Below are positions 27,290-62,767 of a stretch of 64,000 nucleotides of DNA, piece after piece. Positions within the stretch are counted from its first letter, which is position 1; every line of letters begins with the position of its first letter. The position numbers and the translations under genes were made by a program. The notes under the pieces were generated by a model. The model did no database searches. It worked only from the letters and a program-made list of their open reading frames with translations, and was not told where the DNA came from. The stretch spans positions 19,415 to 83,414 of IMG/VR virus record IMGVR_UViG_2913177423_000001; one strand, written 5' to 3'. The stretch is from a virus. Taxonomy: Duplodnaviria; Heunggongvirae; Uroviricota; Caudoviricetes.

Positions 27290-27425
27290 CTACGGCACCT
27301 TAGAAAAACGGGTGCCGGGATTGGTCTCCCGGTAATGTCAAAGGCGACACATAGACGCCGCAAGCGTCTTTTTTGTTGTCGGCGCACTCGCACACCTATC
27401 AATGGTGGGCTGTGTGGTGGCTTCC
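27290..27425 (+). ncRNA. candidate C4-like antisense regulatory RNA in immI-like leader
   Basis: TTGGTCT (27327) and GTGGGCTGTGTGG (27399) complementary to AGACCAA and CCACACAGTCCAC 60-80 nt upstream of icd-like RBS; hairpins and T-run at 27352-27378. Confidence 0.25.
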
Positions 27426-27538
27426 TCGGAAGCGCCGGTTCCCTTTGACGCCGGTAAGACCAACTCCACACAGTCCACCGCCAGTAAGATTGGTCTCTTC
27501 GGCGGTGGTATCGTTCACTGTCAAAGGAGGCTGCCAAT

Positions 27539-52697: not shown

Positions 52698-53405
52698 GTG
52701 AGTATTTTCAGCAGCGTTGGTAGAACGTTGACCACCGCATTGTCATTTAACACGAAATCATTCACCAGCAACCTCATTAGCGACATTCTTGATAAAGCCA
52801 TATCAGGCGGCGGGGTAAGCGGGAATTACAGTAGCGATATTGCCTACGGGAAAAATATTGTTGCTACCGCTATGCGTATCCGTTACGCCCAGGGGTGGCA
52901 GTGGACCGTTGAAGTGGATGGTCTGAACGGCTTCGATATGTTCGTGAAGGATATCACCTACAGCAGTGGGAACATTGAGACAGAAAGCAAGGTGATAGGC
53001 AGCGTGGAGTTCAGTAAGCCAACCTACGTTAGCGCCGGGCCTGTCACTATGACCGTAAGGGATACCGAAGACGGCAAGATCATGAACTGGTTCAAAGAGC
53101 GTCGCTCTCGCGTAACAAATCCGGACGGAACAATAAACCTTCCTCCTGAATATCTGATGAAAATCCGTCTCTACCGGGTAACTCAGGACGGAGGAAAAGA
53201 ACTGGAAGAAGAAATGCGCGTATTTCCTACGCAACTTGGGGAAATCACACGTTCACGTGATCAGGTGTCAGAGTTCTTGTCATACCCAATCACTTTCCAG
53301 AAATACACATCCGCAGGCTCAGGTGTTTCTGCTTTGGTCAACGGTGCAGCAGGTATGGCCACAAGTGCGTTAAAGGGGGCTATCAGTGGAGTGATCAAAT
53401 TCTGA
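52698..53405 (+). CDS. hypothetical tail-module protein (235 aa)
   Basis: GTG start after GGAGG RBS. Confidence 0.5.
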   Translation: MSIFSSVGRTLTTALSFNTKSFTSNLISDILDKAISGGGVSGNYSSDIAYGKNIVATAMRIRYAQGWQWTVEVDGLNGFDMFVKDITYSSGNIETESKVIGSVEFSKPTYVSAGPVTMTVRDTEDGKIMNWFKERRSRVTNPDGTINLPPEYLMKIRLYRVTQDGGKELEEEMRVFPTQLGEITRSRDQVSEFLSYPITFQKYTSAGSGVSALVNGAAGMATSALKGAISGVIKF

Positions 53406-53492
53406 AACGCTTTAATTATGTGTGCTGGCGGGATGATCATTTCCCGTCAGCAACCACGCCCCCAACGATAGCGGGTAGGGAAGGATGCGCAA

Positions 53493-53788
53493 TTTTGAGG
53501 GCATTTTTTACATCATCAATCCATCTGTAATGATGGCATTCTTTACACATTCCAATGTAATCAATAAGTTAACCTAACAAACGATTAAGGAAAATAGCAA
53601 TAAGAATGCCAGACACACACGATATAGACTGAGGGTGATTTTTACATAATCATTGTATATCAATAGGTTACATGAAAACCTAAACTATAAACGACAAGAT
53701 ACATGCGATTTAGATGTAAAAATTGCCCTCAATTGCCGATCGTTGAGGGCAAATTCTACACCTACAGAGTGGTGTAAAAATTGCCCTT
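53493..53788. repeat. iteron array downstream of repA (incA-like), 19-22 bp TGAGGGCAAATCTTACACC-type repeats
   Basis: copies near 53493, 53629, 53713 (inverted), 53741, 53770 (inverted). Confidence 0.6.
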
Positions 53789-54542
53789 AAGACTGTTGAT
53801 AGGTAAATTTTATCCTGGAAACTTTGCCGCCTTCCGTCACTTCTGAGAAGACTATTTTCATTTTTGTATTTTTTTCAATCTCTGCTACAGCCTTCGTTAA
53901 AAAACTTCTCTTAAATTCAGCATACCGCTGGTAGCTTTTTGGCAGCCCGTAACGCTCCCGCATCCATTCGACGCCCAGTATGGCAAAACCGCTTCCATCA
54001 TCCTTTCTGTACTGGCATAAGGACTCATAAAGCCGCATAGAATAAGGATTTGTTAGGCGAGATACTTCGGTAAAATTCAGCCTTGTGAATCTCTTATCAA
54101 GCAGAGTAAAAAATGGCATGAGATATGGATTCAGATGAATAATGTAAGTCCCGCGCCGTGGTGAATAGGCATCCTTAATCATCCAAGGATAAGACTCATA
54201 ACTGTCTTCTGATTCAGTCGATTCATCAGGGTTATATATCGTGACTTTCTTCTCGCTAAGTCCTGAGATGGCCTTACGAATATCCTTGCTGGCTTCGGCA
54301 GAGGGCAAATTATACATCTCTGCATATTCGTTGACCGTTAACTCACAGGCACCTGAACCAAGAACGCCATCCTTAGAAGCATAACGAAGTCTTCCCACCA
54401 CAATAAACAACAATCGCTTTTGGTCGCGCGTCAGGTGATAAGCCGCCTCTGTGATCTCGTTGGCCTGGGCCAGACTACGACTAATTGGTGTCGCTGATTC
54501 AATAAGACTGACGGCTTTTGCCGTTAATTCCGCTCTGTTCAT
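53787..54542 (-). CDS. repA: iteron-binding replication initiator RepA (Rep_3 family)
   Basis: Rep_3-like blocks (LTRDQKRLLFIVVGRL, SYPWM, RLYESLCQYR); start at internal ATG; flanked by iterons. Confidence 0.75.
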   Translation of the reverse strand: MNRAELTAKAVSLIESATPISRSLAQANEITEAAYHLTRDQKRLLFIVVGRLRYASKDGVLGSGACELTVNEYAEMYNLPSAEASKDIRKAISGLSEKKVTIYNPDESTESEDSYESYPWMIKDAYSPRRGTYIIHLNPYLMPFFTLLDKRFTRLNFTEVSRLTNPYSMRLYESLCQYRKDDGSGFAILGVEWMRERYGLPKSYQRYAEFKRSFLTKAVAEIEKNTKMKIVFSEVTEGGKVSRIKFTYQQS

Positions 54543-54565
54543 AACCCTGTGTGATCCTTCAAATG

Positions 54566-54685
54566 GTGAGGGCAATTTTTACATCACTTTGAGGGTAATT
54601 ACTACACCTTTTGAGGGCAAATCTTACACCTTCTGAGGGCAAATCTTACACCGATCACGCTTAGTTGAGGGCAAATCTTACACCT
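54566..54685. repeat. origin iteron array upstream of repA (five direct repeats)
   Basis: GGTGAGGGCAATTTTTACATCA, TTTGAGGGTAATTACTACACCT, TTTGAGGGCAAATCTTACACCT, TCTGAGGGCAAATCTTACACCG, GTTGAGGGCAAATCTTACACCT. Confidence 0.7.
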
Positions 54686-54779
54686 TCCTCCTCTACAGGC
54701 CGCGCCACCACTGGCTCCAGCGATGCCTAAAAAGGATCTAAAAATGATTAAAAATGGAAAAAGGTTTATAAAAATACTC

Positions 54780-54788
54780 TGTGGATAT
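54780..54788 (-). promoter_or_regulatory. DnaA box-like site (rc ATATCCACA) in AT-rich origin flank
   Basis: 8 of 9 match to TTATCCACA next to iterons, AT-rich stretch and GATC site. Confidence 0.3.
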
Positions 54789-54929
54789 GTGAATAGCGTC
54801 ACTTAAGGTGTAAAAATCACCCTCAATAATCACTACACGATTGACAAAATCATCACTCAATCCCCCTCCGAAATCACACACTCCCTATCCTCTGGAAAAT
54901 GAACAGATACCTGCTTATCGGAGGAATAC

Positions 54930-55751
54930 TTGAACATTCCAAAATTCCCATTGCCTTCCCGCCCTGAGACAGAAATTCAGTTCCACGCACCCACCGTGAA
55001 GGATGCGCTGAAATATTCTGACCTGAACCCGGCAGAAGATGAAGCAACTACTACAGAGTACCTGAACTCTATGCAGGATGGCGAAATTAACGACAGTGCT
55101 TACTGGACAGTCCAGGATCGCAGAACTGCCCTTTGGTGGATATTTGTTAATTCACGTCCCGATGCAGTAATGACCTACTCCTATGAGTGCAGTCACTGCG
55201 GTAATACGCATCACGCTGATATAAACCTGAGCGATCTGGCTCAAACAGTAGAGATACTCACTGTACCGCCTTACGTAAAAACCAACGTACCGGTAAACGG
55301 TGTACCAACTGACTGGATACTTAAACCATTAACCGGGAAAGGCGCGGAACTCCTTGAACGTATGCGTGCGTCACTTCCTGATATGAAAAGCCCTGAATAC
55401 AGTGCAGGCGTGGCCCGTATGCGCATTGCAGAACTCGCTTTATGCACGGCACTGGACGACGATCCGGAAGACTTCACTCAAGCAGCTAACCGCCGTTTCG
55501 ACATCATTGAAAGCATGGCGCTTGAAACGGAGTTTACTCCGCTTGTAGCTCGCATACAGCTTATGCAAAAAGACCTTCGCCACGGCCTGAAAATGTCTAT
55601 TGAGAGAGGCAAAAGCCGCCTAATCCTGCCTCCGCAACATTGCAAAAACGCTAAGGAGGGTGCAGACGTGACTACCACGCTGTACGTCCCCTTTCTCAAT
55701 AGAGAGTTTATCCCATCAATTAGATCTGAATGGATGGCTAACCATTATTAA
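54930..55751 (+). CDS. hypothetical protein (273 aa)
   Basis: ATG ORF between replicon and tape-measure gene. Confidence 0.5.
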   Translation: MNIPKFPLPSRPETEIQFHAPTVKDALKYSDLNPAEDEATTTEYLNSMQDGEINDSAYWTVQDRRTALWWIFVNSRPDAVMTYSYECSHCGNTHHADINLSDLAQTVEILTVPPYVKTNVPVNGVPTDWILKPLTGKGAELLERMRASLPDMKSPEYSAGVARMRIAELALCTALDDDPEDFTQAANRRFDIIESMALETEFTPLVARIQLMQKDLRHGLKMSIERGKSRLILPPQHCKNAKEGADVTTTLYVPFLNREFIPSIRSEWMANHY

Positions 55752-55871: not shown

Positions 55872-58800
55872 TTGATCGCCGCTGGCAAAAGAGAGGTTAT
55901 TTTGAAAGAGAATAAAGACCGCATCGCAATAATTGACGCTATTCAGGGGGCGAGCACAAACGAACTCAAGGCTCTTGCTGAGATCAAAGACGCCATTCTC
56001 TCTGGTAGAGGGTCTATAACTCAACTTAATGAAAGGCAGGGTAAAGTTAGTCAAAGACTATCCCGTAGACGCATAGCAAGCGAACCCGATGCCTCTGATG
56101 ATGCCAAGAATACCCAGGCCAACCCATATATAAAGCGCCTTCCGATGAAAAAAGGGAGGACACAGGTCAACAACGGAGAAAAACGACTCATTGTTGCAAC
56201 CAACACATCAGAGCGCGTTCATTTTGCGTCATCACGCCAGTCCGCCCAAAAGTTGAAAGGTTCTGTACCAGTAGCCGCCAATTCTGCCCCTCTTGAACCA
56301 CAATCCCCCCAAAGCCAAAAAGGACCGCTTCGGGATAGTAATGGACGCTTTGTATCCCAGAAAAACAACGAGGATATAGCCAGAAAAAAAGAATGGCAGA
56401 ACGCACGTAAGGCCGACGCCAAACTACAAGAAGGCTTCCTCCGGAAATTAGGCTCCATTATGGGGGTAGATGGCAATCGGTCTTCCAGTGAAGAGTCCTT
56501 AACAGATGCCGCAGGTGTCGGCGCTGGTGGCCCGTTGTGGATGGCTGCTCGCGGCATGTACGACATTACTAAAGAGATCACAGGTAAAGCAGAATCTCTT
56601 AAAGAATGGGTAGAAAAGGGGAAAGGTGAGGCTTCAGCTTCAAAAGTGACATCGCCAGCAATCACTTATCCGGCAGCGGTGAATGCTCAAAAAGCAACAT
56701 CCGCAAAAGCGTTTAATAATGCTGTTGAGACAAAATCCACACAGGCAGTAGAAGAGCAAACAAAAATCCTTCAGACCAATGACAACAAAATAATTGATGG
56801 TCTGGAAAATGTCTCTGACGAAGTAGTTAAACTCCGCAAATCGGTGTCTTCTGGGAATAAGTTCGGCTTAAGTGATCTCTGGAGAAATCGACAAGGCGGA
56901 AGAAATAAAATCAATTTTGGCGATCAGACAAGTAAAAACAAAAGGCGTAAATCGAAAAGGAAAGGTCGCAATCTGGGGAAAAAAGCCCTTTCCGTTGGTG
57001 AAAAAGCCGCTGCCGGAACCGCTGCCGCTGGAGCTGGTGCCGGAGCTGCAAAGACTGTTAAAACAAAGGTTAGTAAAGCCAAAGACATCAGCACCACTAG
57101 CGACGTATCTAAGGGTATTGGTAAAGAGGCAAAAAACACTGCAAAGGCAGTTAAGCCAGTAGGTGTAGTTGCCGAAGAGGCCACAATTAAAACAGGTGAA
57201 ACTGTTGCAAAGAAAAAAACCGAATCCGTAGCCCTCAAAAGTGCTGCAAAAATAGGCGTTAAATCAGCTGCATCTACAGCTGCAAGAGCTATCCCGATCA
57301 TCGGATCGCTGGCTATGGCGGGATATGACGCAATAGATGGTTACACTGATACAGATGCGCAAAAGGCAGCCTTTGGCTTAAGTGATGATGATGCAGTATC
57401 CACACAGCAAAAATCCGCTTACGCAACAGCTAATGTGCTTGATATGGGCGGCTTAGTGTCGGGCGCAACCAACCTGATAGGCAAAGGGATTTCTGCGTTA
57501 GGCTTCGAAAGGGCAGGTGAAAAACTTCAGAATTTTGATACCGGAGATATTGCTCGTGGTGTTAATGGCGCAGTAGATATCACTAAATCTGCTTTTGGAA
57601 GCCTTAAGGATAAATTTTTATCCACTGATGAAAACACGAAGCAAGTAAAAAAAGCGGTTGAGGATGGCACCAAGAAGACTGTCGATGCGATTCATTCTTT
57701 AGGTGAGCAGCTACAAGGCGGGCGTGATGGTGAAGATGGTGTTGGTGAGCACGGGTATACTTCCCCGGCTGAATTTAATGCCCCTACCAGCAACACCATT
57801 GCAGCGGATCTGAATATTGGTGGCAGCAACGCTAAAAACCGCAATTACCGGAATAATAATCTCGGCAACCTTGTTTTCGCTAATCAGGAAGGGGCGACGC
57901 TGGAAGCGCCAAATGCAAAAGGTGAGCAACGTTTTGCGCGATTTAACACGCCTGAAGAAGGGATCAGGGCGCTGGCAAACCAGGTGTCAAGCTATTACAA
58001 CGGCACCAGTGCCGCAGCGGGACACCAGAAGTTACAGACGGTATCAAGCATCATTTCCAAATGGGCGCCGCCAAATGAGAACAATACCAATCAATATATT
58101 GATAACGTCAGTAAATATCTTGGCGTCTCGCCTAATGAAAAAATAGATGTCAGCAACCCAGAGGTTATGACGCAATTAGTTCGTGCAATAGCAACGAAAG
58201 AAGGCGGAAACCCGGCGGTTAACAATGAGTTCATAAAGAATGCTCTTGGGACATTCAACGCAAATACTGGTCGTTGGGAAGGGCGTTTCTCCGATGAAAC
58301 ATTGGCGCGACTTAATAAAATTCAGAAAGAGAATGGCGGTCAGCTAATTGCTCGTGATTCGCAATATAGCGTTGGTCGCAAGGTGAAATATGCTGATGGA
58401 ACATCTCCGGCAAAATCTGTATTGAATGCAGTTCCAACAGCAACACCTAAGCCAATTGAAGTTGCACAACATGCCCAGGCAGCCAAAAAGCCACTAAAAC
58501 CAGGCAACCAACCACAACCGATTAATCCAGAGAACGCTGATGTTAATACCGGCACGCCATCAAGTTTGCCTGAGCGGTTAATCGCCATAAATGAAAGCGG
58601 AATTAGTGGCGTAACTAATTTGTTTGGCGGCGCGGCTACCAGCCTTGCTGGAACACACCTGGACTTGGTGAAGGATTTTGCGTCGGCTACTTCATTAGGT
58701 TCTGTATCTTCGCTTTCCGAAAAAGCGAAGGGAATGGACCAGGCTCTGACTGAAAAAATATCCGGATTAACAGGCAAACCTTTTGGATTCAAAAAAGCCT

Positions 58801-59561
58801 CCCAGGTAGCTGATATCAGAGAGGCTATACAAAAAAGGCCAACCCATGAACGCGATATATCTTCAGTCGATCTTCTCGCTGGCGCGTCACAGCCAACAGA
58901 GAATAAAAAAACACCTGTAAACCCAAAAGGGATTCCGGTCTATGACAATGGCTACAAGGTAATAGACGGCGAAGATAAGGGATTTCTTGGCTCTTTGTTT
59001 GATTCGTCATTAACAGGCATGAAGCGCATTGGTTCGGCTGTATTACCTGCAATTGGTGACAACGTTTCACAACTTGTAGGCGGCATCGATGGCACTGGCA
59101 TATTGAATGATTTTGTCTATCAGGCTACAGGGCAGAATTCAACAATCGCCAGGGCGATTAGCCCACTTACAAGAAGTGCTGGTGGTTGGCTAAATAATGG
59201 CATTCAACAAACCGCTGATAGCATCAGGGGAATATCAACTGAGGCAAATAATGCCATATTTGGCTCTGCGTCAGCCGTGCAGGAACCTTTTCTTGCTATG
59301 CCGCCACAGCTTCCCACTGTAACCGATCTTGCTCGAAGCGGAATAAGGCAACCATTAACTACTGACACTGCAAATAACGATCCTGCTATGTTGAAGGCAT
59401 TGGATAACGTCTGTTCTATCCTGAACGACCTTCTGAATGTGAGCAAAAATAATACGAAAGGCGATCCGGATAAGGTTGTCAAAACATCGCAGCCACAGCC
59501 GCGACCACGTGCGAGCACAACCATTAATGACCCGTCGCTGGATGCTCTGCTTGAGGATTAA
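55872..59561 (+). CDS. tail tape-measure / injection protein (Sit-like, about 1229 aa)
   Basis: very long Lys/Ala/Gly-rich ORF ahead of baseplate genes; start codon uncertain (TTG 55872 or 55902). Confidence 0.6.
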   Translation: MIAAGKREVILKENKDRIAIIDAIQGASTNELKALAEIKDAILSGRGSITQLNERQGKVSQRLSRRRIASEPDASDDAKNTQANPYIKRLPMKKGRTQVNNGEKRLIVATNTSERVHFASSRQSAQKLKGSVPVAANSAPLEPQSPQSQKGPLRDSNGRFVSQKNNEDIARKKEWQNARKADAKLQEGFLRKLGSIMGVDGNRSSSEESLTDAAGVGAGGPLWMAARGMYDITKEITGKAESLKEWVEKGKGEASASKVTSPAITYPAAVNAQKATSAKAFNNAVETKSTQAVEEQTKILQTNDNKIIDGLENVSDEVVKLRKSVSSGNKFGLSDLWRNRQGGRNKINFGDQTSKNKRRKSKRKGRNLGKKALSVGEKAAAGTAAAGAGAGAAKTVKTKVSKAKDISTTSDVSKGIGKEAKNTAKAVKPVGVVAEEATIKTGETVAKKKTESVALKSAAKIGVKSAASTAARAIPIIGSLAMAGYDAIDGYTDTDAQKAAFGLSDDDAVSTQQKSAYATANVLDMGGLVSGATNLIGKGISALGFERAGEKLQNFDTGDIARGVNGAVDITKSAFGSLKDKFLSTDENTKQVKKAVEDGTKKTVDAIHSLGEQLQGGRDGEDGVGEHGYTSPAEFNAPTSNTIAADLNIGGSNAKNRNYRNNNLGNLVFANQEGATLEAPNAKGEQRFARFNTPEEGIRALANQVSSYYNGTSAAAGHQKLQTVSSIISKWAPPNENNTNQYIDNVSKYLGVSPNEKIDVSNPEVMTQLVRAIATKEGGNPAVNNEFIKNALGTFNANTGRWEGRFSDETLARLNKIQKENGGQLIARDSQYSVGRKVKYADGTSPAKSVLNAVPTATPKPIEVAQHAQAAKKPLKPGNQPQPINPENADVNTGTPSSLPERLIAINESGISGVTNLFGGAATSLAGTHLDLVKDFASATSLGSVSSLSEKAKGMDQALTEKISGLTGKPFGFKKASQVADIREAIQKRPTHERDISSVDLLAGASQPTENKKTPVNPKGIPVYDNGYKVIDGEDKGFLGSLFDSSLTGMKRIGSAVLPAIGDNVSQLVGGIDGTGILNDFVYQATGQNSTIARAISPLTRSAGGWLNNGIQQTADSIRGISTEANNAIFGSASAVQEPFLAMPPQLPTVTDLARSGIRQPLTTDTANNDPAMLKALDNVCSILNDLLNVSKNNTKGDPDKVVKTSQPQPRPRASTTINDPSLDALLED

Positions 59562-61378: not shown

Positions 61379-62224
61379 ATGAAAGAGAATTGGTTTAAGG
61401 AGCGGTTAACTAAAGCAAAACAGGATTCTAAGCTCTGGAGCGCCTTCATAGGCGCTTTACAGGACGTCTGGGATGAAGCTGTAGAACCGATATTAACCAG
61501 AATAAGTAACAGAAAATCATTCTTCACGATGGCAAGTGAAGATATGGATACTCGTATCGCGGAATACGGGCGCTTTTTCGTTATTACCGAAAAAGATAAG
61601 ACCCGTAGACCAATGCTTCTGGCCCAACGTTTAGATGAAGTGCATTTTAAAGGAACTCTCCGCCCGATTGAGCAGACGTTCTGGCGTGAATTCGGCACAA
61701 TCCCTGTAACATGGGAGCCTCTTTACGCCCCCGTAGATTTAGAAAAGCATCCCTATGGTTCGTATTTTGCTACAGCAATTGAGATACCTACAGCGCAGGC
61801 CCAATTTGGAGAATTCTTTCTAACATCACGAGGGCTGGTTGTTGTTGATCAGAATAAGCTCTATCGCTCATATGGCGAGTATAATAAAGGTACGGCAGTA
61901 CAGAAATTATTAGCAGATTTTGAAACAGTAATCGCGCCTTTGTTACCGCTGCATATTGTTTTTGATGGAGTGTCCTTCCAGCTTAGTGCTGTATTCCCTG
62001 AAGTGGCAGAAATACTAAATTGCTTGTCTACGGACGTTTCGGTAATTGAAGGTGTTTATGTTACTGATAGTATGACTGATATGCTATCCCGTAGTGATAA
62101 CTCCTGCCAGGTAGACAATATTTCGCTTGATGCTATTCCGAACAGAACGGCAGAAAAGCAACTACATCTTGATATAATCCCACTAGATGCCTGGCCTTTA
62201 GATTACCACCTTCAGCCTGTTTGA
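61379..62224 (+). CDS. baseplate/tail-fiber attachment protein candidate
   Basis: 281-aa ORF in baseplate-fiber block. Confidence 0.45.
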   Translation: MKENWFKERLTKAKQDSKLWSAFIGALQDVWDEAVEPILTRISNRKSFFTMASEDMDTRIAEYGRFFVITEKDKTRRPMLLAQRLDEVHFKGTLRPIEQTFWREFGTIPVTWEPLYAPVDLEKHPYGSYFATAIEIPTAQAQFGEFFLTSRGLVVVDQNKLYRSYGEYNKGTAVQKLLADFETVIAPLLPLHIVFDGVSFQLSAVFPEVAEILNCLSTDVSVIEGVYVTDSMTDMLSRSDNSCQVDNISLDAIPNRTAEKQLHLDIIPLDAWPLDYHLQPV

Positions 62225-62320
62225 TAATTCTTCCCCCGGGCGTGCGGGGGAAGAACAACGGAAATCACAAACTGAGCATACTCTCCTTCGGTTCATTGCT
62301 TATGAAGGGGCTATGTTCGT

Positions 62321-62767
62321 ATGGCAGAAAATTTAAAGGCAAGAGATGGCAATAGCCTGTATAAGGCACAATTGCTTTCCTACTACTATTCACGCCGTGC
62401 CGAATCAGCGATCGGTAAAGGTGCGCGTTTCGTTATCTCTAAGGCGTATTGGTGCAAATCTGGACTGGTAACTGCAAATGGTGCTGGTGGCTGGAATATT
62501 GCTGACATTCCACTCGATTTTAAATTGAGTGACGCTCAACAGTTTGCTGCTTCCGATCTGATATTGTCCAGTGTGGATGGAATTATCACTATCAATGCTG
62601 CCTTCCCTCAAGAAAGAATGCCGGATAACACGCCCTATGACTTTAACACGCTTGTGCTTGTTGATGCTGAAGATCAGGCTTTTGGCGTGCTTTGTACCCA
62701 ACAGGATACTCTCTACAAAGGTAAGCGTTACAGCATTCTCATGACAATCGAGCAAGTTGAGGGATGA
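62321..62767 (+). CDS. hypothetical protein preceding tail fiber gene
   Basis: 148 aa; stop overlaps tail fiber start. Confidence 0.45.
   Translation: MAENLKARDGNSLYKAQLLSYYYSRRAESAIGKGARFVISKAYWCKSGLVTANGAGGWNIADIPLDFKLSDAQQFAASDLILSSVDGIITINAAFPQERMPDNTPYDFNTLVLVDAEDQAFGVLCTQQDTLYKGKRYSILMTIEQVEG

What the first reader, a model, noticed from the sequence alone, without database searches (positions are those of the whole stretch)
53493..54830. Rep_3 replicon with iterons on both sides of repA plus a DnaA box
Five direct 22-bp iterons lie upstream of repA (54566-54685), four to five more downstream (two inverted), and one inverted copy at about 54800, next to an AT-rich tract, a DnaA box-like site and a GATC. 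This is the architecture of P1 oriR with incC and incA, but the iteron sequence is distinct, predicting a separate incompatibility specificity.
Basis: partly seen in the sequence, partly recalled or inferred. Interest (0 to 1): 0.45.

Follow-up and report, generated by a model that had tools for sequence, protein, structure and literature searches.

The report
Plasmid origin of D6-like phage-plasmid
This is the plasmid-maintenance origin of a phage D6-like phage-plasmid, an already catalogued replicon that is related to the F plasmid's ori2/RepE system and not to P1's oriR, so it is real but ordinary.

Summary
Twelve copies of a 19-bp iteron (TGAGGGCAAWTHTTACAYC) lie in 53496-54825 and nowhere else in the 64 kb (0.2 expected by chance). 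Five are direct upstream of repA, five are downstream in mixed orientation, one is inverted beyond the AT-rich tract, and one lies inside repA.

The layout works like P1 oriR/incC/incA, but the homology is to mini-F ori2-repE-incC. RepA is 50% identical to RepE (E 9e-86) and has no significant similarity to P1 RepA. The tandem DnaA boxes, the AT-rich tract with its GATC, the GC-rich box and half of the iteron (TTGCCCTCA) all align with F.

The locus is not new. It is 92-94% identical to more than 100 E. coli, Salmonella and Shigella plasmids of about 90 kb and to phage D6. RepA is 99.6-100% identical to D6 orf42. Iterons next to this gene have been mentioned in print.

It differs from F in three ways: the half of the iteron that RepE's second DNA-binding domain (WH2) contacts in F has diverged, there is no separate operator, and the downstream iterons point both ways.

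Two side observations may be unreported: a conserved iteron inside repA, and an orphan P1-type iteron just outside the replicon.

The parts
53787..54542 (-). repA, a 251-aa iteron-binding initiator with two winged-helix domains (WH1 + WH2). The start is the ATG at 54542.
   Evidence: Pfam Rep3_N 3.5e-29 and Rep3_C 2e-15. It is 50% identical to F RepE over 228 aa, E 9e-86, and matches PDB 1REP/7UXY at E about 1e-73. It is 99.6% identical to D6 orf42. RefSeq annotates the same 756-nt CDS in D6 and pPSS-10_3.
54567..54684 (-). Origin iteron array: five direct 19-bp iterons at 54567-85, 54590-608, 54612-30, 54634-52 and 54666-84. In the repA sense they read GGTGTAAGATTTGCCCTCA, the same orientation relative to the rep gene as F's ori2 iterons.
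   Evidence: The cores are invariant and the spacers variable across D6-like sequences. The TTGCCCTCA half is identical to the F iteron TGTGACAAATTGCCCTCA.
54575..54583 (-). Candidate repA promoter: an extended -10 element, TGTAAAAAT, lying inside the proximal iteron. This is inferred, not shown.
   Evidence: My own sigma-70 scan. The hexamer lies within 1 nt of the same distance from the ATG as F's TGTGACAAT, which sits in the left arm of the repE operator. Only 24 nt separate the last iteron from the ATG, so an F-style operator cannot fit. The stricter tool scan found no promoter here.
54690..54727 (.). GC-rich spacer between the iterons and the AT-rich tract. It contains CAGGCCGCGCCAC at 54696-54708.
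   Evidence: GC is 57-58%. It aligns with the GC-rich box of F, Pantoea and Erwinia origins. The 13-mer is identical in P1 oriR and in the phage SJ46 replicon.
54728..54779 (.). AT-rich tract, the presumed DNA-unwinding element, containing a GATC at 54736-54739.
   Evidence: GC is 25% in 54740-54799. TTTTTAGATCC aligns with F's TTTTTAGATCT, and GAGTATTTTTATAAA aligns with F's GATATTTTTATAA. The tract is conserved in D6 and pPSS-10_3.
54780..54796 (-). Two tandem DnaA-box-like sites 8 nt apart: CTATTCACA at 54796-54788 and ATATCCACA at 54788-54780.
   Evidence: One search finds one box at 8 of 9, which is not significant alone. The pair aligns in position with F's TTATCCACTTATCCAC and with TTTTCCACTTATCCAC in Pantoea and Erwinia. 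It is invariant in D6-like sequences.
54807..54825 (+). Distal iteron, inverted relative to the array, on the far side of the DnaA boxes. It reads GGTGTAAAAATCACCCTCA on the + strand.
   Evidence: It is present at the same position in all 18 D6-like loci that reach that position and was not detected in F, Pantoea or Erwinia.
54300..54318 (-). Iteron-like site inside repA. In the repA sense it reads GATGTATAATTTGCCCTCT and encodes E-M-Y-N-L-P-S.
   Evidence: 2 mismatches. The same sequence sits at the same codons in Pantoea and Erwinia homologues that share only about 62% nucleotide identity. It is the best-conserved 7-codon window in the gene, 20 of 21 nt. All 5 degenerate codons are identical against a background of 0.22 per codon, p about 5e-4.
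53496..53789 (.). Downstream iteron cluster, presumed to control copy number and incompatibility like F incC or P1 incA. Relative to the origin array: 53771-89 inverted, 53744-62 direct, 53713-31 inverted, 53630-48 direct, 53531-49 weak direct, 53496-514 direct.
   Evidence: The positions are conserved in all D6-like loci. In F, Pantoea and Erwinia the downstream iterons are all inverted.
53417..53458 (.). Orphan P1-type (IncY) iteron TATGTGTGCTGGCGGGATG at 53417-35 on the + strand, with a degenerate inverted partner at 53440-58. It lies at the left edge of the inserted replicon.
   Evidence: It matches P1 incC iteron 11 at 17 of 17 positions. It scores 25.6 bits on a matrix built from P1's iterons, whose own scores are 18.4-31.1; the next best site in the window scores 16.2. 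Neither the window nor D6 has a P1 RepA homologue. The segment is absent from 2 of 19 D6-like loci. As RNA it also forms a -23 kcal/mol hairpin.

Best explanation
The 1.5-kb block 53406-54929 is the plasmid-prophage (theta-type, iteron-controlled) replicon of a phage D6-like phage-plasmid. It is a diverged homologue of the mini-F ori2-repE-incC replicon. It sits between the tail genes tub and pmgB, antisense to them.

Proposed mechanism, by homology with F; none of it was tested here.
1. RepA monomers bind the five direct iterons. The WH1 domain reads the conserved TTGCCCTCA half and the WH2 domain reads the diverged GGTGTAAGA/GATGTAAAA half.
2. Host DnaA binds the two tandem boxes. Together they open the 25%-GC tract lying between the boxes and the iterons, and the host replisome loads there.
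3. RepA bound to the proximal iteron covers the extended -10 of its own promoter. Autorepression therefore runs through an iteron, as in P1, and not through a separate inverted-repeat operator, as in F.
4. The downstream iterons, and possibly the one inside repA and the distal inverted one, titrate RepA and pair with origin iterons (handcuffing or looping). This would hold copy number low and define incompatibility.
5. Because the WH2 half-site differs from F's, and the whole iteron differs from P1's, the specificity should be distinct from both IncFIA and IncY.
For: Identity of the locus.
- 92-94% nucleotide identity over the full 1.5 kb to 111 plasmids, 108 of them non-mobilizable, and to phage D6.
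- Window 39-64 kb is colinear with D6, 95% covered at 90% identity.
- The neighbours are tub, pmgB and sit homologues.
- pPSS-10_3, a circular 90.5-kb plasmid, carries this as its only typed replicon, rep_cluster_1704.

Homology to F.
- RepA against RepE: 50% identity, E 9e-86; PDB 1REP at 5e-73.
- The origin core aligns element by element with F ori2: tandem DnaA boxes, the AT-rich tract with TTTTTAGATC, the GC box, and iterons in the same orientation.
- The 12-mer AAATTGCCCTCA is identical to F's iteron.

Iterons.
- 12 sites against 0.2 expected, conserved in position across 19 D6-like loci with variable spacers.
- Plasmids from Pantoea and Erwinia whose Rep is 60-63% identical carry the same iteron type in the same layout.

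WH2 half-site. The review PMC4980987 states that RepE's WH2 domain contacts GTG/GtCA, that is, the TGTGAC half. That is the half that differs here.

Autoregulation. Only 24 nt lie between the last iteron and the ATG, and the extended -10 inside the proximal iteron is placed as in F.

Compatibility with P1. Co-residence is reported.

F replicon functions used for the analogy are taken from PMC13028717.
Against: - No experiment on this replicon was found. Autonomous replication, RepA-iteron binding, promoter position and incompatibility are all inferred.
- The promoter call is weak: the -35 matches 3 of 6, and the tool's stricter scan found nothing there.
- A stronger promoter-like site (TTCACA-17-TATAAA, 54793-54765, minus strand) overlaps the DnaA boxes and could drive repA instead.
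- The downstream iterons have mixed orientation, unlike F and the Pantoea and Erwinia relatives, so their control role could differ.
- The primary D6 genome paper (Gilcrease and Casjens 2018) was not available. I cannot say what it already states.
Confidence: 0.88

Rival explanations
1. One reading: this is a P1 oriR-type replicon (an IncY relative) carrying a new iteron specificity.
For: The gross layout is the same: DnaA box, AT-rich tract, five iterons, repA, then more iterons. The host element is a P1 relative. A single P1-type iteron and the 13-mer CAGGCCGCGCCAC shared with P1 oriR are present.
Against: RepA has no significant similarity to P1 RepA (E 0.054). tblastn with the window's RepA finds no P1 in the phage collection, and tblastn with P1 RepA finds no D6. 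The iteron sequences are unrelated. P1 has five GATC heptamers and this locus has one GATC. In P1 the replicon sits elsewhere in the genome (repA at 61771-62631, between upfA and parA), and tub and pmgB are 14 bp apart.
Confidence: 0.04
2. It is simply an IncFIA (F ori2) replicon and would cross-react with F, meaning the same incompatibility group.
For: 50% identity to RepE and an alignable origin. The 12-mer AAATTGCCCTCA is identical in both iterons.
Against: The outer 6-7 bp of the iteron, where RepE's WH2 domain makes its base contacts in F (PMC4980987), differ at essentially every contacted position: TGTGAC against GGTGTA/GATGTA. There is no F-type operator. PLSDB types it rep_cluster_1704, not IncFIA. 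The WH2 recognition segment differs (PKSYQRYAEFKRS against PQSYQRMPDFRRR), while the WH1 segment SAEASKDIR is identical.
Confidence: 0.05
3. The replicon is a decayed relic, and the element is maintained by another system such as repL or an unrecognised origin.
For: No experimental proof of function was found. The predicted promoter and ribosome-binding site are weak.
Against: The ORF is intact and full length, the same 251 aa as RepE. The protein is 98-100% conserved while the intergenic spacers vary. All iterons and DnaA boxes are conserved in position in 19 loci. It is the only plasmid-type replicon typed in a circular 90-kb plasmid.
Confidence: 0.03

Closest known systems
Plasmid replicon of Escherichia phage D6 (orf42 'replication initiation protein', NC_050154) and D6-like plasmid prophages such as pYU39_89 and pPSS-10_3 (MOB-suite rep_cluster_1704)
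   Same: RepA is 99.6-100% identical. The 1.5-kb block is 92-94% identical. Every iteron, the DnaA boxes and the AT-rich tract are at the same positions, and the block has the same insertion site between tub and pmgB. [quoted passage not shown]
   Different: Only point differences: about 6-8% of nucleotides, mostly in spacers and in the AT-rich stretch downstream of repA. One origin iteron has C to T (TGAGGGTAAT). The orphan P1-type iteron is the GGCGGG variant, where D6 has GGAGGG.
Mini-F ori2 (oriS) / incB - repE - incC replicon (RepFIA, IncFIA)
   Same: Homologous initiator, 50% identical and also 251 aa. Both have tandem DnaA boxes 8 nt apart, an AT-rich tract with TTTTTAGATC, a GC-rich box, direct origin iterons in the same orientation, and a second iteron cluster right after the stop codon. 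The half-iteron (AAA)TTGCCCTCA is identical, and an extended -10 lies at the same distance from the ATG.
   Different: Five origin iterons here against four in F. The half of the iteron contacted by RepE's WH2 domain has diverged (GGTGTAAGA/GATGTAAAA against TGTGACAA). There is no inverted-repeat operator; a full iteron occupies that place. The downstream iterons have mixed orientation, where F's are all inverted. This locus has an extra inverted iteron beyond the DnaA boxes and an iteron-like site inside the gene. No sopABC partition genes are adjacent; the neighbours are tail genes.
P1 oriR / incC - repA - incA replicon (IncY)
   Same: Functional layout: DnaA boxes, an AT-rich region, five origin iterons reaching almost to the gene so that the promoter must lie within them, and control iterons downstream of repA. 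Both are low-copy plasmid-prophage replicons of related phages. The 13-mer CAGGCCGCGCCAC is shared.
   Different: No detectable RepA homology. The iteron sequences are unrelated. P1 has five GATC heptamers and nine incA iterons. The P1 replicon lies at a different genomic position and is linked to parAB.
RepE-like replicons of Erwiniaceae plasmids (Pantoea sp. pAPP145_3; an Erwinia aeris contig)
   Same: Rep is 60-63% identical. They have the same iteron type (nnTGTAGAAATTGCCCTCA), 4-5 direct origin iterons ending about 25-40 nt before the start codon, the same intragenic iteron-like site, tandem DnaA boxes and an AT-rich tract.
   Different: Their downstream iterons are more numerous (8 to about 20) and nearly all inverted. 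No distal inverted iteron was detected, and the AT-rich tract has no GATC. They are not in a phage context as far as the 5.7-kb loci show.

Membership tests
Rep_3 (PF01051) iteron-type theta replicons | Initiator with Rep3_N (WH1) and Rep3_C (WH2) domains | tested here: met
   Pfam Rep3_N 102 bits against a cut-off of 22.4, and Rep3_C 57 bits against 21.1.
Rep_3 (PF01051) iteron-type theta replicons | Tandem direct repeats (iterons) next to the rep gene, at about two helical turns | tested here: met
   Five direct 19-mers spaced 22-23 bp, with one 32-bp gap. In total 12 sites against 0.2 expected.
Rep_3 (PF01051) iteron-type theta replicons | AT-rich unwinding region and DnaA box(es) beside the iterons | tested here: met
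   A 25%-GC tract. Two boxes match 8 of 9 positions of the relaxed consensus TTATNCACA, aligned with F's pair. The sequence match of either box alone is not significant.
Rep_3 (PF01051) iteron-type theta replicons | Autonomous, Rep-dependent replication | not testable with these tools
   Indirect only: a circular 90-kb plasmid carries this as its sole typed replicon.
D6-like phage-plasmid replicon (rep_cluster_1704) | Rep near-identical to D6 orf42, in the same genomic context (tub - rep - pmgB - sit) | tested here: met
   99.6% amino-acid identity. The context is identical. The flanking 25 kb is colinear with D6.
D6-like phage-plasmid replicon (rep_cluster_1704) | Same iteron set at the same positions | tested here: met
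   All sites are positionally conserved in 19 loci.
Mini-F ori2/RepE (IncFIA) | RepE orthologue | tested here: met
   50% identity over 228 aa, E 9e-86. This makes it a homologue, not a near-identical orthologue.
Mini-F ori2/RepE (IncFIA) | F iteron TGTGACAAATTGCCCTCA, which determines incB/incC specificity | tested here: not met
   Only the (AAA)TTGCCCTCA half is shared. The half contacted by WH2 in F differs at every contacted base.
Mini-F ori2/RepE (IncFIA) | Inverted-repeat operator between the origin iterons and repE, bound by RepE dimers | tested here: not met
   Only 24 nt lie between the last iteron and the ATG. No inverted repeat of the half-site is present beyond a 5-7-bp TCACAC remnant.
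Mini-F ori2/RepE (IncFIA) | Typed as IncFIA by replicon-typing schemes | tested here: not met
   PLSDB/MOB-suite gives rep_cluster_1704 for pPSS-10_3 and IncFIA for true repE plasmids.
P1 oriR/RepA (IncY) | P1-type RepA | tested here: not met
   BLASTP E = 0.054. There is no reciprocal tblastn hit.
P1 oriR/RepA (IncY) | 19-bp iteron GATGTGTGCTGGAGGGAAA in incC and incA | tested here: not met
   The functional arrays have an unrelated sequence. Only one orphan P1-type copy exists, at 53417-53435, outside the arrays.
P1 oriR/RepA (IncY) | Cluster of five GATC (Dam) heptamers in the AT-rich region | tested here: not met
   The AT-rich tract has a single GATC, at 54736.

The most novel reading that the evidence does not exclude
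Two details could be new biology, and neither is excluded by my evidence.

(a) The orphan P1-type iteron at 53417-53435. It scores within the range of P1's own iterons, no cognate RepA is present in the window or in D6, and it is present in 17 of 19 D6-like sequences. It could be a working decoy or pairing site for the RepA of co-resident P1/IncY phage-plasmids. That would let D6-like elements depress the copy number of a competing relative.

(b) The iteron-like site inside repA. It is conserved at the nucleotide level across lineages that share about 62% nucleotide identity. It could be a genuine RepA binding site used for autoregulation (a transcriptional roadblock) or for pairing with origin iterons.
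Probability: 0.15. Interest if true: 0.5.

Novelty: already known. Interest (0 to 1): 0.2.

Why it matters
D6-like phage-plasmids are widespread in clinical E. coli, Shigella and Salmonella. According to a 2025 preprint, their replicon is missing from the common typing databases, PlasmidFinder among them, so these elements get mis-typed or overlooked. Knowing that the replicon is a mini-F relative, with a defined iteron consensus and a changed WH2 half-site, gives a usable typing marker. It also gives a concrete prediction: compatibility with both IncFIA and IncY. Beyond that, the locus is a textbook iteron replicon and raises no open question.

Tried and rejected
- I first recalled that D6-like plasmids carry the PlasmidFinder 'p0111' replicon. 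The literature shows that p0111 and IncY are the two replicon types of P1-like elements and that D6's rep is a separate, untyped one. The p0111 example, phage SJ46, has unrelated iterons (TGTTGACTATACGCGA).
- P1 homology is rejected: BLASTP E 0.054, and no cross-hits in either direction.
- The Gilcrease and Casjens 2018 D6 genome paper (PMC5800970) is not held, so I could not check what it says about the origin.
- Rfam found nothing credible in 53300-55000; the only match was BsrG at E 0.7, 15 bits against a 55-bit cut-off.
- The tool's promoter scan found no repA promoter. My relaxed scan gave only a weak extended -10 candidate, plus a stronger site over the DnaA boxes.
- I looked for a P1-type late promoter upstream of pmgB in 54826-54929, using LPsit and LP23 as guides. 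There was no convincing match.
- I looked for an F-like operator inverted repeat between the proximal iteron and the ATG. Only a short TCACAC remnant and a 5-bp GTGAT/ATCAC pair turned up, which I do not count as an operator.
- I tested whether the P1-type iteron pair is merely a terminator hairpin. It folds well in the window (-23.3 kcal/mol), but there is no U-tract. D6's version folds worse (-16.9) yet keeps its P1-iteron score at 23.7 bits, within the range of P1's own iterons. This remains unresolved.
Full report

Yes. In 52800-55600 the repeat finder returns families of a 19-bp core, TGAGGGCAA(A/T)T(C/T)TTACA(C/T)C.

A pattern scan of the whole 64-kb window at up to 3 mismatches finds 12 sites, all inside 53496-54825. 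Dinucleotide-preserving shuffles give 0.20 on average and never more than 2.

- Five direct copies lie immediately upstream of the minus-strand ORF 53787-54542. They start at 54567, 54590, 54612, 54634 and 54666, spaced 23, 22, 22 and 32 bp.
- Five lie downstream of its stop codon. Those at 53496, 53630 and 53744 have the same orientation as the upstream array. Those at 53713 and 53771 are inverted.
- One inverted copy is at 54807-54825.
- A sixth, weak downstream copy at 53531-53549 is conserved in position.

Between the upstream array and the distal inverted copy, in order:

- a GC-rich stretch of 57-58% GC;
- a tract of 25% GC that contains a GATC at 54736;
- a DnaA-box-like ATATCCACA at 54780-54788 on the minus strand.

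The box is not significant as a sequence match: the window has 9 one-mismatch sites against 14.6 expected. Its credibility comes from context, described in section 3.

**2. What is the element?**

The ORF encodes a 251-aa protein with Pfam Rep3_N and Rep3_C domains.

- The 1.5-kb block is 92-94% identical over its full length to 111 PLSDB plasmids from E. coli, Salmonella and Shigella. These are about 90 kb and 108 of them are non-mobilizable. It is also 92.3% identical to Escherichia phage D6.
- The protein is 99.6% identical to D6 orf42, annotated 'replication initiation protein', and 100% identical to proteins encoded on many IMG/VR contigs.
- The flanking genes are the D6/P1 tail genes tub (52698-53405), pmgB (54930-55751) and sit (55872-59561).
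- Window 39-64 kb is colinear with D6, 95% covered at 90% identity.
- Elsewhere the window carries a P1-family C4 antisense RNA and three tRNAs.

So the window is part of a D6-like phage-plasmid, and the finding is its plasmid-maintenance replicon.

PLSDB/MOB-suite types the closest plasmid as rep_cluster_1704, with no other replicon. [quoted passage not shown] A 2025 preprint notes that the D6 replicon is absent from common typing databases, and that P1-like and D6-like elements co-reside in a few E. coli isolates (10.1101/2025.09.12.675607).

**3. What is it related to?**

Not P1, except by analogy.

- RepA against P1 RepA gives no significant alignment (E 0.054).
- tblastn with the window's RepA finds no P1 record. 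tblastn with P1 RepA finds P1, P7, SSU5 and SJ46-type phages but not D6, and nothing in the window.
- P1's iteron, GATGTGTGCTGGAGGGAAA, is unrelated.

The real relative is mini-F.

- RepA is 50% identical to RepE over 228 residues (E 9e-86). It hits the RepE crystal structures at about 1e-73 and thousands of IncFIA plasmids at about 50% identity.
- Read in the repA sense, the origin aligns with F ori2 element by element:

| Element | Window | F ori2 |
|---|---|---|
| Tandem DnaA boxes, 8 nt apart | CTATTCACATATCCACA | TTATCCACTTATCCAC |
| Start of AT-rich tract | GAGTATTTTTATAAA | GATATTTTTATAA |
| GATC in AT-rich tract | TTTTTAGATCC | TTTTTAGATCT |
| GC-rich box | present | present |
| Direct iterons | same orientation relative to the rep gene | reference |
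| Second iteron cluster after the stop codon | present | present (incC) |

- The iterons share the half (AAA)TTGCCCTCA exactly and differ in the other half. F reads TGTGACAAATTGCCCTCA; the window reads GGTGTAAGATTTGCCCTCA or GATGTAAAAATTGCCCTCA.
- According to the review PMC4980987, RepE's WH2 domain contacts GTG and GtCA, that is, the TGTGAC half. So the WH2 half-site is the one that has changed.
- The protein sequences fit this. The WH1 segment SAEASKDIR is identical in both proteins. The WH2 segment differs: PKSYQRYAEFKRS here against PQSYQRMPDFRRR in F. Assigning these segments as recognition helices is my inference from the known RepE fold.

Intermediate relatives exist. Pantoea sp. plasmid pAPP145_3 and an Erwinia aeris contig encode Reps that are 63% and 60% identical to this RepA. 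They have the same iteron type, the same tandem DnaA boxes and AT-rich tract, 4-5 direct origin iterons, and 8 to about 20 downstream iterons, nearly all inverted.

**4. How it most likely works**

Everything in this section is inferred from homology. None of it was shown here.

- RepA monomers bind the five origin iterons and DnaA binds the tandem boxes. Together they melt the AT-rich tract between them and the host replisome loads, as described for F oriS (PMC13028717).
- The downstream cluster would act like F incC or P1 incA, titrating RepA and pairing with origin iterons to hold copy number low and to determine incompatibility.
- Autoregulation must differ from F in detail. F has a separate inverted-repeat operator (AGTGTGACAATCT...TTGTCACACT) between its iterons and repE. 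Here the fifth iteron ends 24 nt before the ATG, so there is no room for one.
- My relaxed sigma-70 scan places an extended -10 (TGTAAAAAT, 54583-54575, minus strand) inside that proximal iteron. It lies within 1 nt of the distance from the ATG at which F's TGTGACAAT lies in the left operator arm.
- RepA bound to the proximal iteron would therefore occlude its own promoter. That is the arrangement P1 uses at incC.
- The promoter call is weak. The -35 matches 3 of 6, and the stricter tool scan found nothing. A stronger promoter-like site (TTCACA-17-TATAAA) overlaps the DnaA boxes and points toward repA; F has a similar one at the same place.

**5. Differences from every relative examined**

D6-like replicons have a distal inverted iteron beyond the DnaA boxes and a mixed-orientation downstream cluster. 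Neither feature is seen in F, Pantoea or Erwinia.

The replicon is a 1.5-kb insertion between tub and pmgB, which are 14 bp apart in P1. It is oriented antisense to the tail operon. P1's own replicon is elsewhere in its genome, next to parAB.

**6. Side observations**

(a) The intragenic iteron-like site encodes E-M-Y-N-L-P-S.
- It is the most nucleotide-conserved 7-codon window of the gene across the window, Pantoea and Erwinia: 20 of 21 nt, against a gene-wide mean of about 11.7.
- All five degenerate codons are identical, where the background is 22% per codon (p about 5e-4). The site was chosen by the iteron scan, not by conservation.
- This suggests selection at the DNA level.

(b) A P1-type iteron lies just outside the outermost D6-type iteron.
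- TATGTGTGCTGGCGGGATG at 53417-53435 matches P1 incC copy 11 at 17 of 17 positions.
- It scores 25.6 bits on a matrix built from P1's 14 iterons, whose own scores are 18.4-31.1. The next best site in the window scores 16.2.
- A degenerate inverted partner follows at 53440-53458.
- It matches neither the SJ46 (p0111) nor the SSU5 iterons.
- It is present in 17 of 19 D6-like sequences and absent as a roughly 45-bp indel in two.
- It has no cognate RepA.
- It also folds into a stable hairpin with no U-tract.
- A relic, a decoy for P1 RepA, or a plain hairpin cannot be told apart here.

(c) The 13-mer CAGGCCGCGCCAC in the GC-rich box is identical in P1 oriR and in SJ46, although those Rep proteins are unrelated to this one.

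**7. Verdict**

The P1 comparison holds as functional analogy only. The family is mini-F/RepE-like, and the specific replicon is the already sequenced and annotated, though apparently not experimentally dissected, replicon of phage D6 and its many plasmid relatives.

I rate novelty as already known and interest as low (0.2). The intragenic iteron and the orphan P1-type iteron are minor leads.

Noticed in passing
window 53417-53458: An orphan P1/IncY-type iteron, TATGTGTGCTGGCGGGATG, matches P1 incC copy 11 at 17 of 17 positions and scores 25.6 bits on a matrix built from P1's iterons. A degenerate inverted partner follows it. The pair sits between the tub stop codon and the outermost D6-type iteron. 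Neither the window nor D6 has a P1-type RepA. The segment is present in 17 of 19 D6-like loci and missing as a roughly 45-bp indel in L024 and L025. It also forms a -23 kcal/mol hairpin with no U-tract.
   Followed up: partly
window 54300-54318 (inside repA, codons E-M-Y-N-L-P-S): An iteron-like sequence lies inside the repA coding region. All of its synonymous positions are conserved in Pantoea and Erwinia homologues whose genes share only about 62% nucleotide identity. It is the most conserved 7-codon stretch of the gene (p about 5e-4).
   Followed up: partly
window 54696-54708; L005 (P1) 6816-6828; L028 (SJ46) 1160-1172: The GC-rich 13-mer CAGGCCGCGCCAC, which lies next to the origin iterons, is identical in the D6-like origin, P1 oriR and the p0111-type SJ46 replicon, although their Rep proteins belong to different families. 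In the window it is inverted relative to the origin polarity it has in P1.
   Followed up: partly
window 53406-54929 compared with P1 45373-45388 (L007): The whole replicon is a 1.5-kb insertion between tub and pmgB, which are 14 bp apart in P1. It is oriented antisense to the tail operon. Late transcription must therefore either read through repA antisense or restart before pmgB. No P1-type late promoter was found upstream of pmgB.
   Followed up: partly
window 54765-54793 (minus strand); F locus L004 about 4147-4176: A strong sigma-70-like site (TTCACA-17-TATAAA, 10 of 12) overlaps the tandem DnaA boxes and points through the AT-rich tract toward repA. F ori2 has a comparable site (TCCACT-18-TATAAT) at the same place.
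   Followed up: no
window 27295-27485; 4398-4554; 6027-6102: P1-family immunity RNAs (isrK-like RNA and C4 antisense RNA, both above the Rfam gathering scores) and three tRNA genes (Arg-TCT, Thr-TGT, Met-CAT). These are consistent with a P1/D6-type phage-plasmid.
   Followed up: no
L009 (Pantoea sp. pAPP145_3) about 3230-4370: About 20 iterons of the D6/Erwiniaceae type follow the rep gene, nearly all inverted, many at a spacing of about 43-45 bp. That is a far larger control array than F incC (5 iterons) or P1 incA (9).
   Followed up: no
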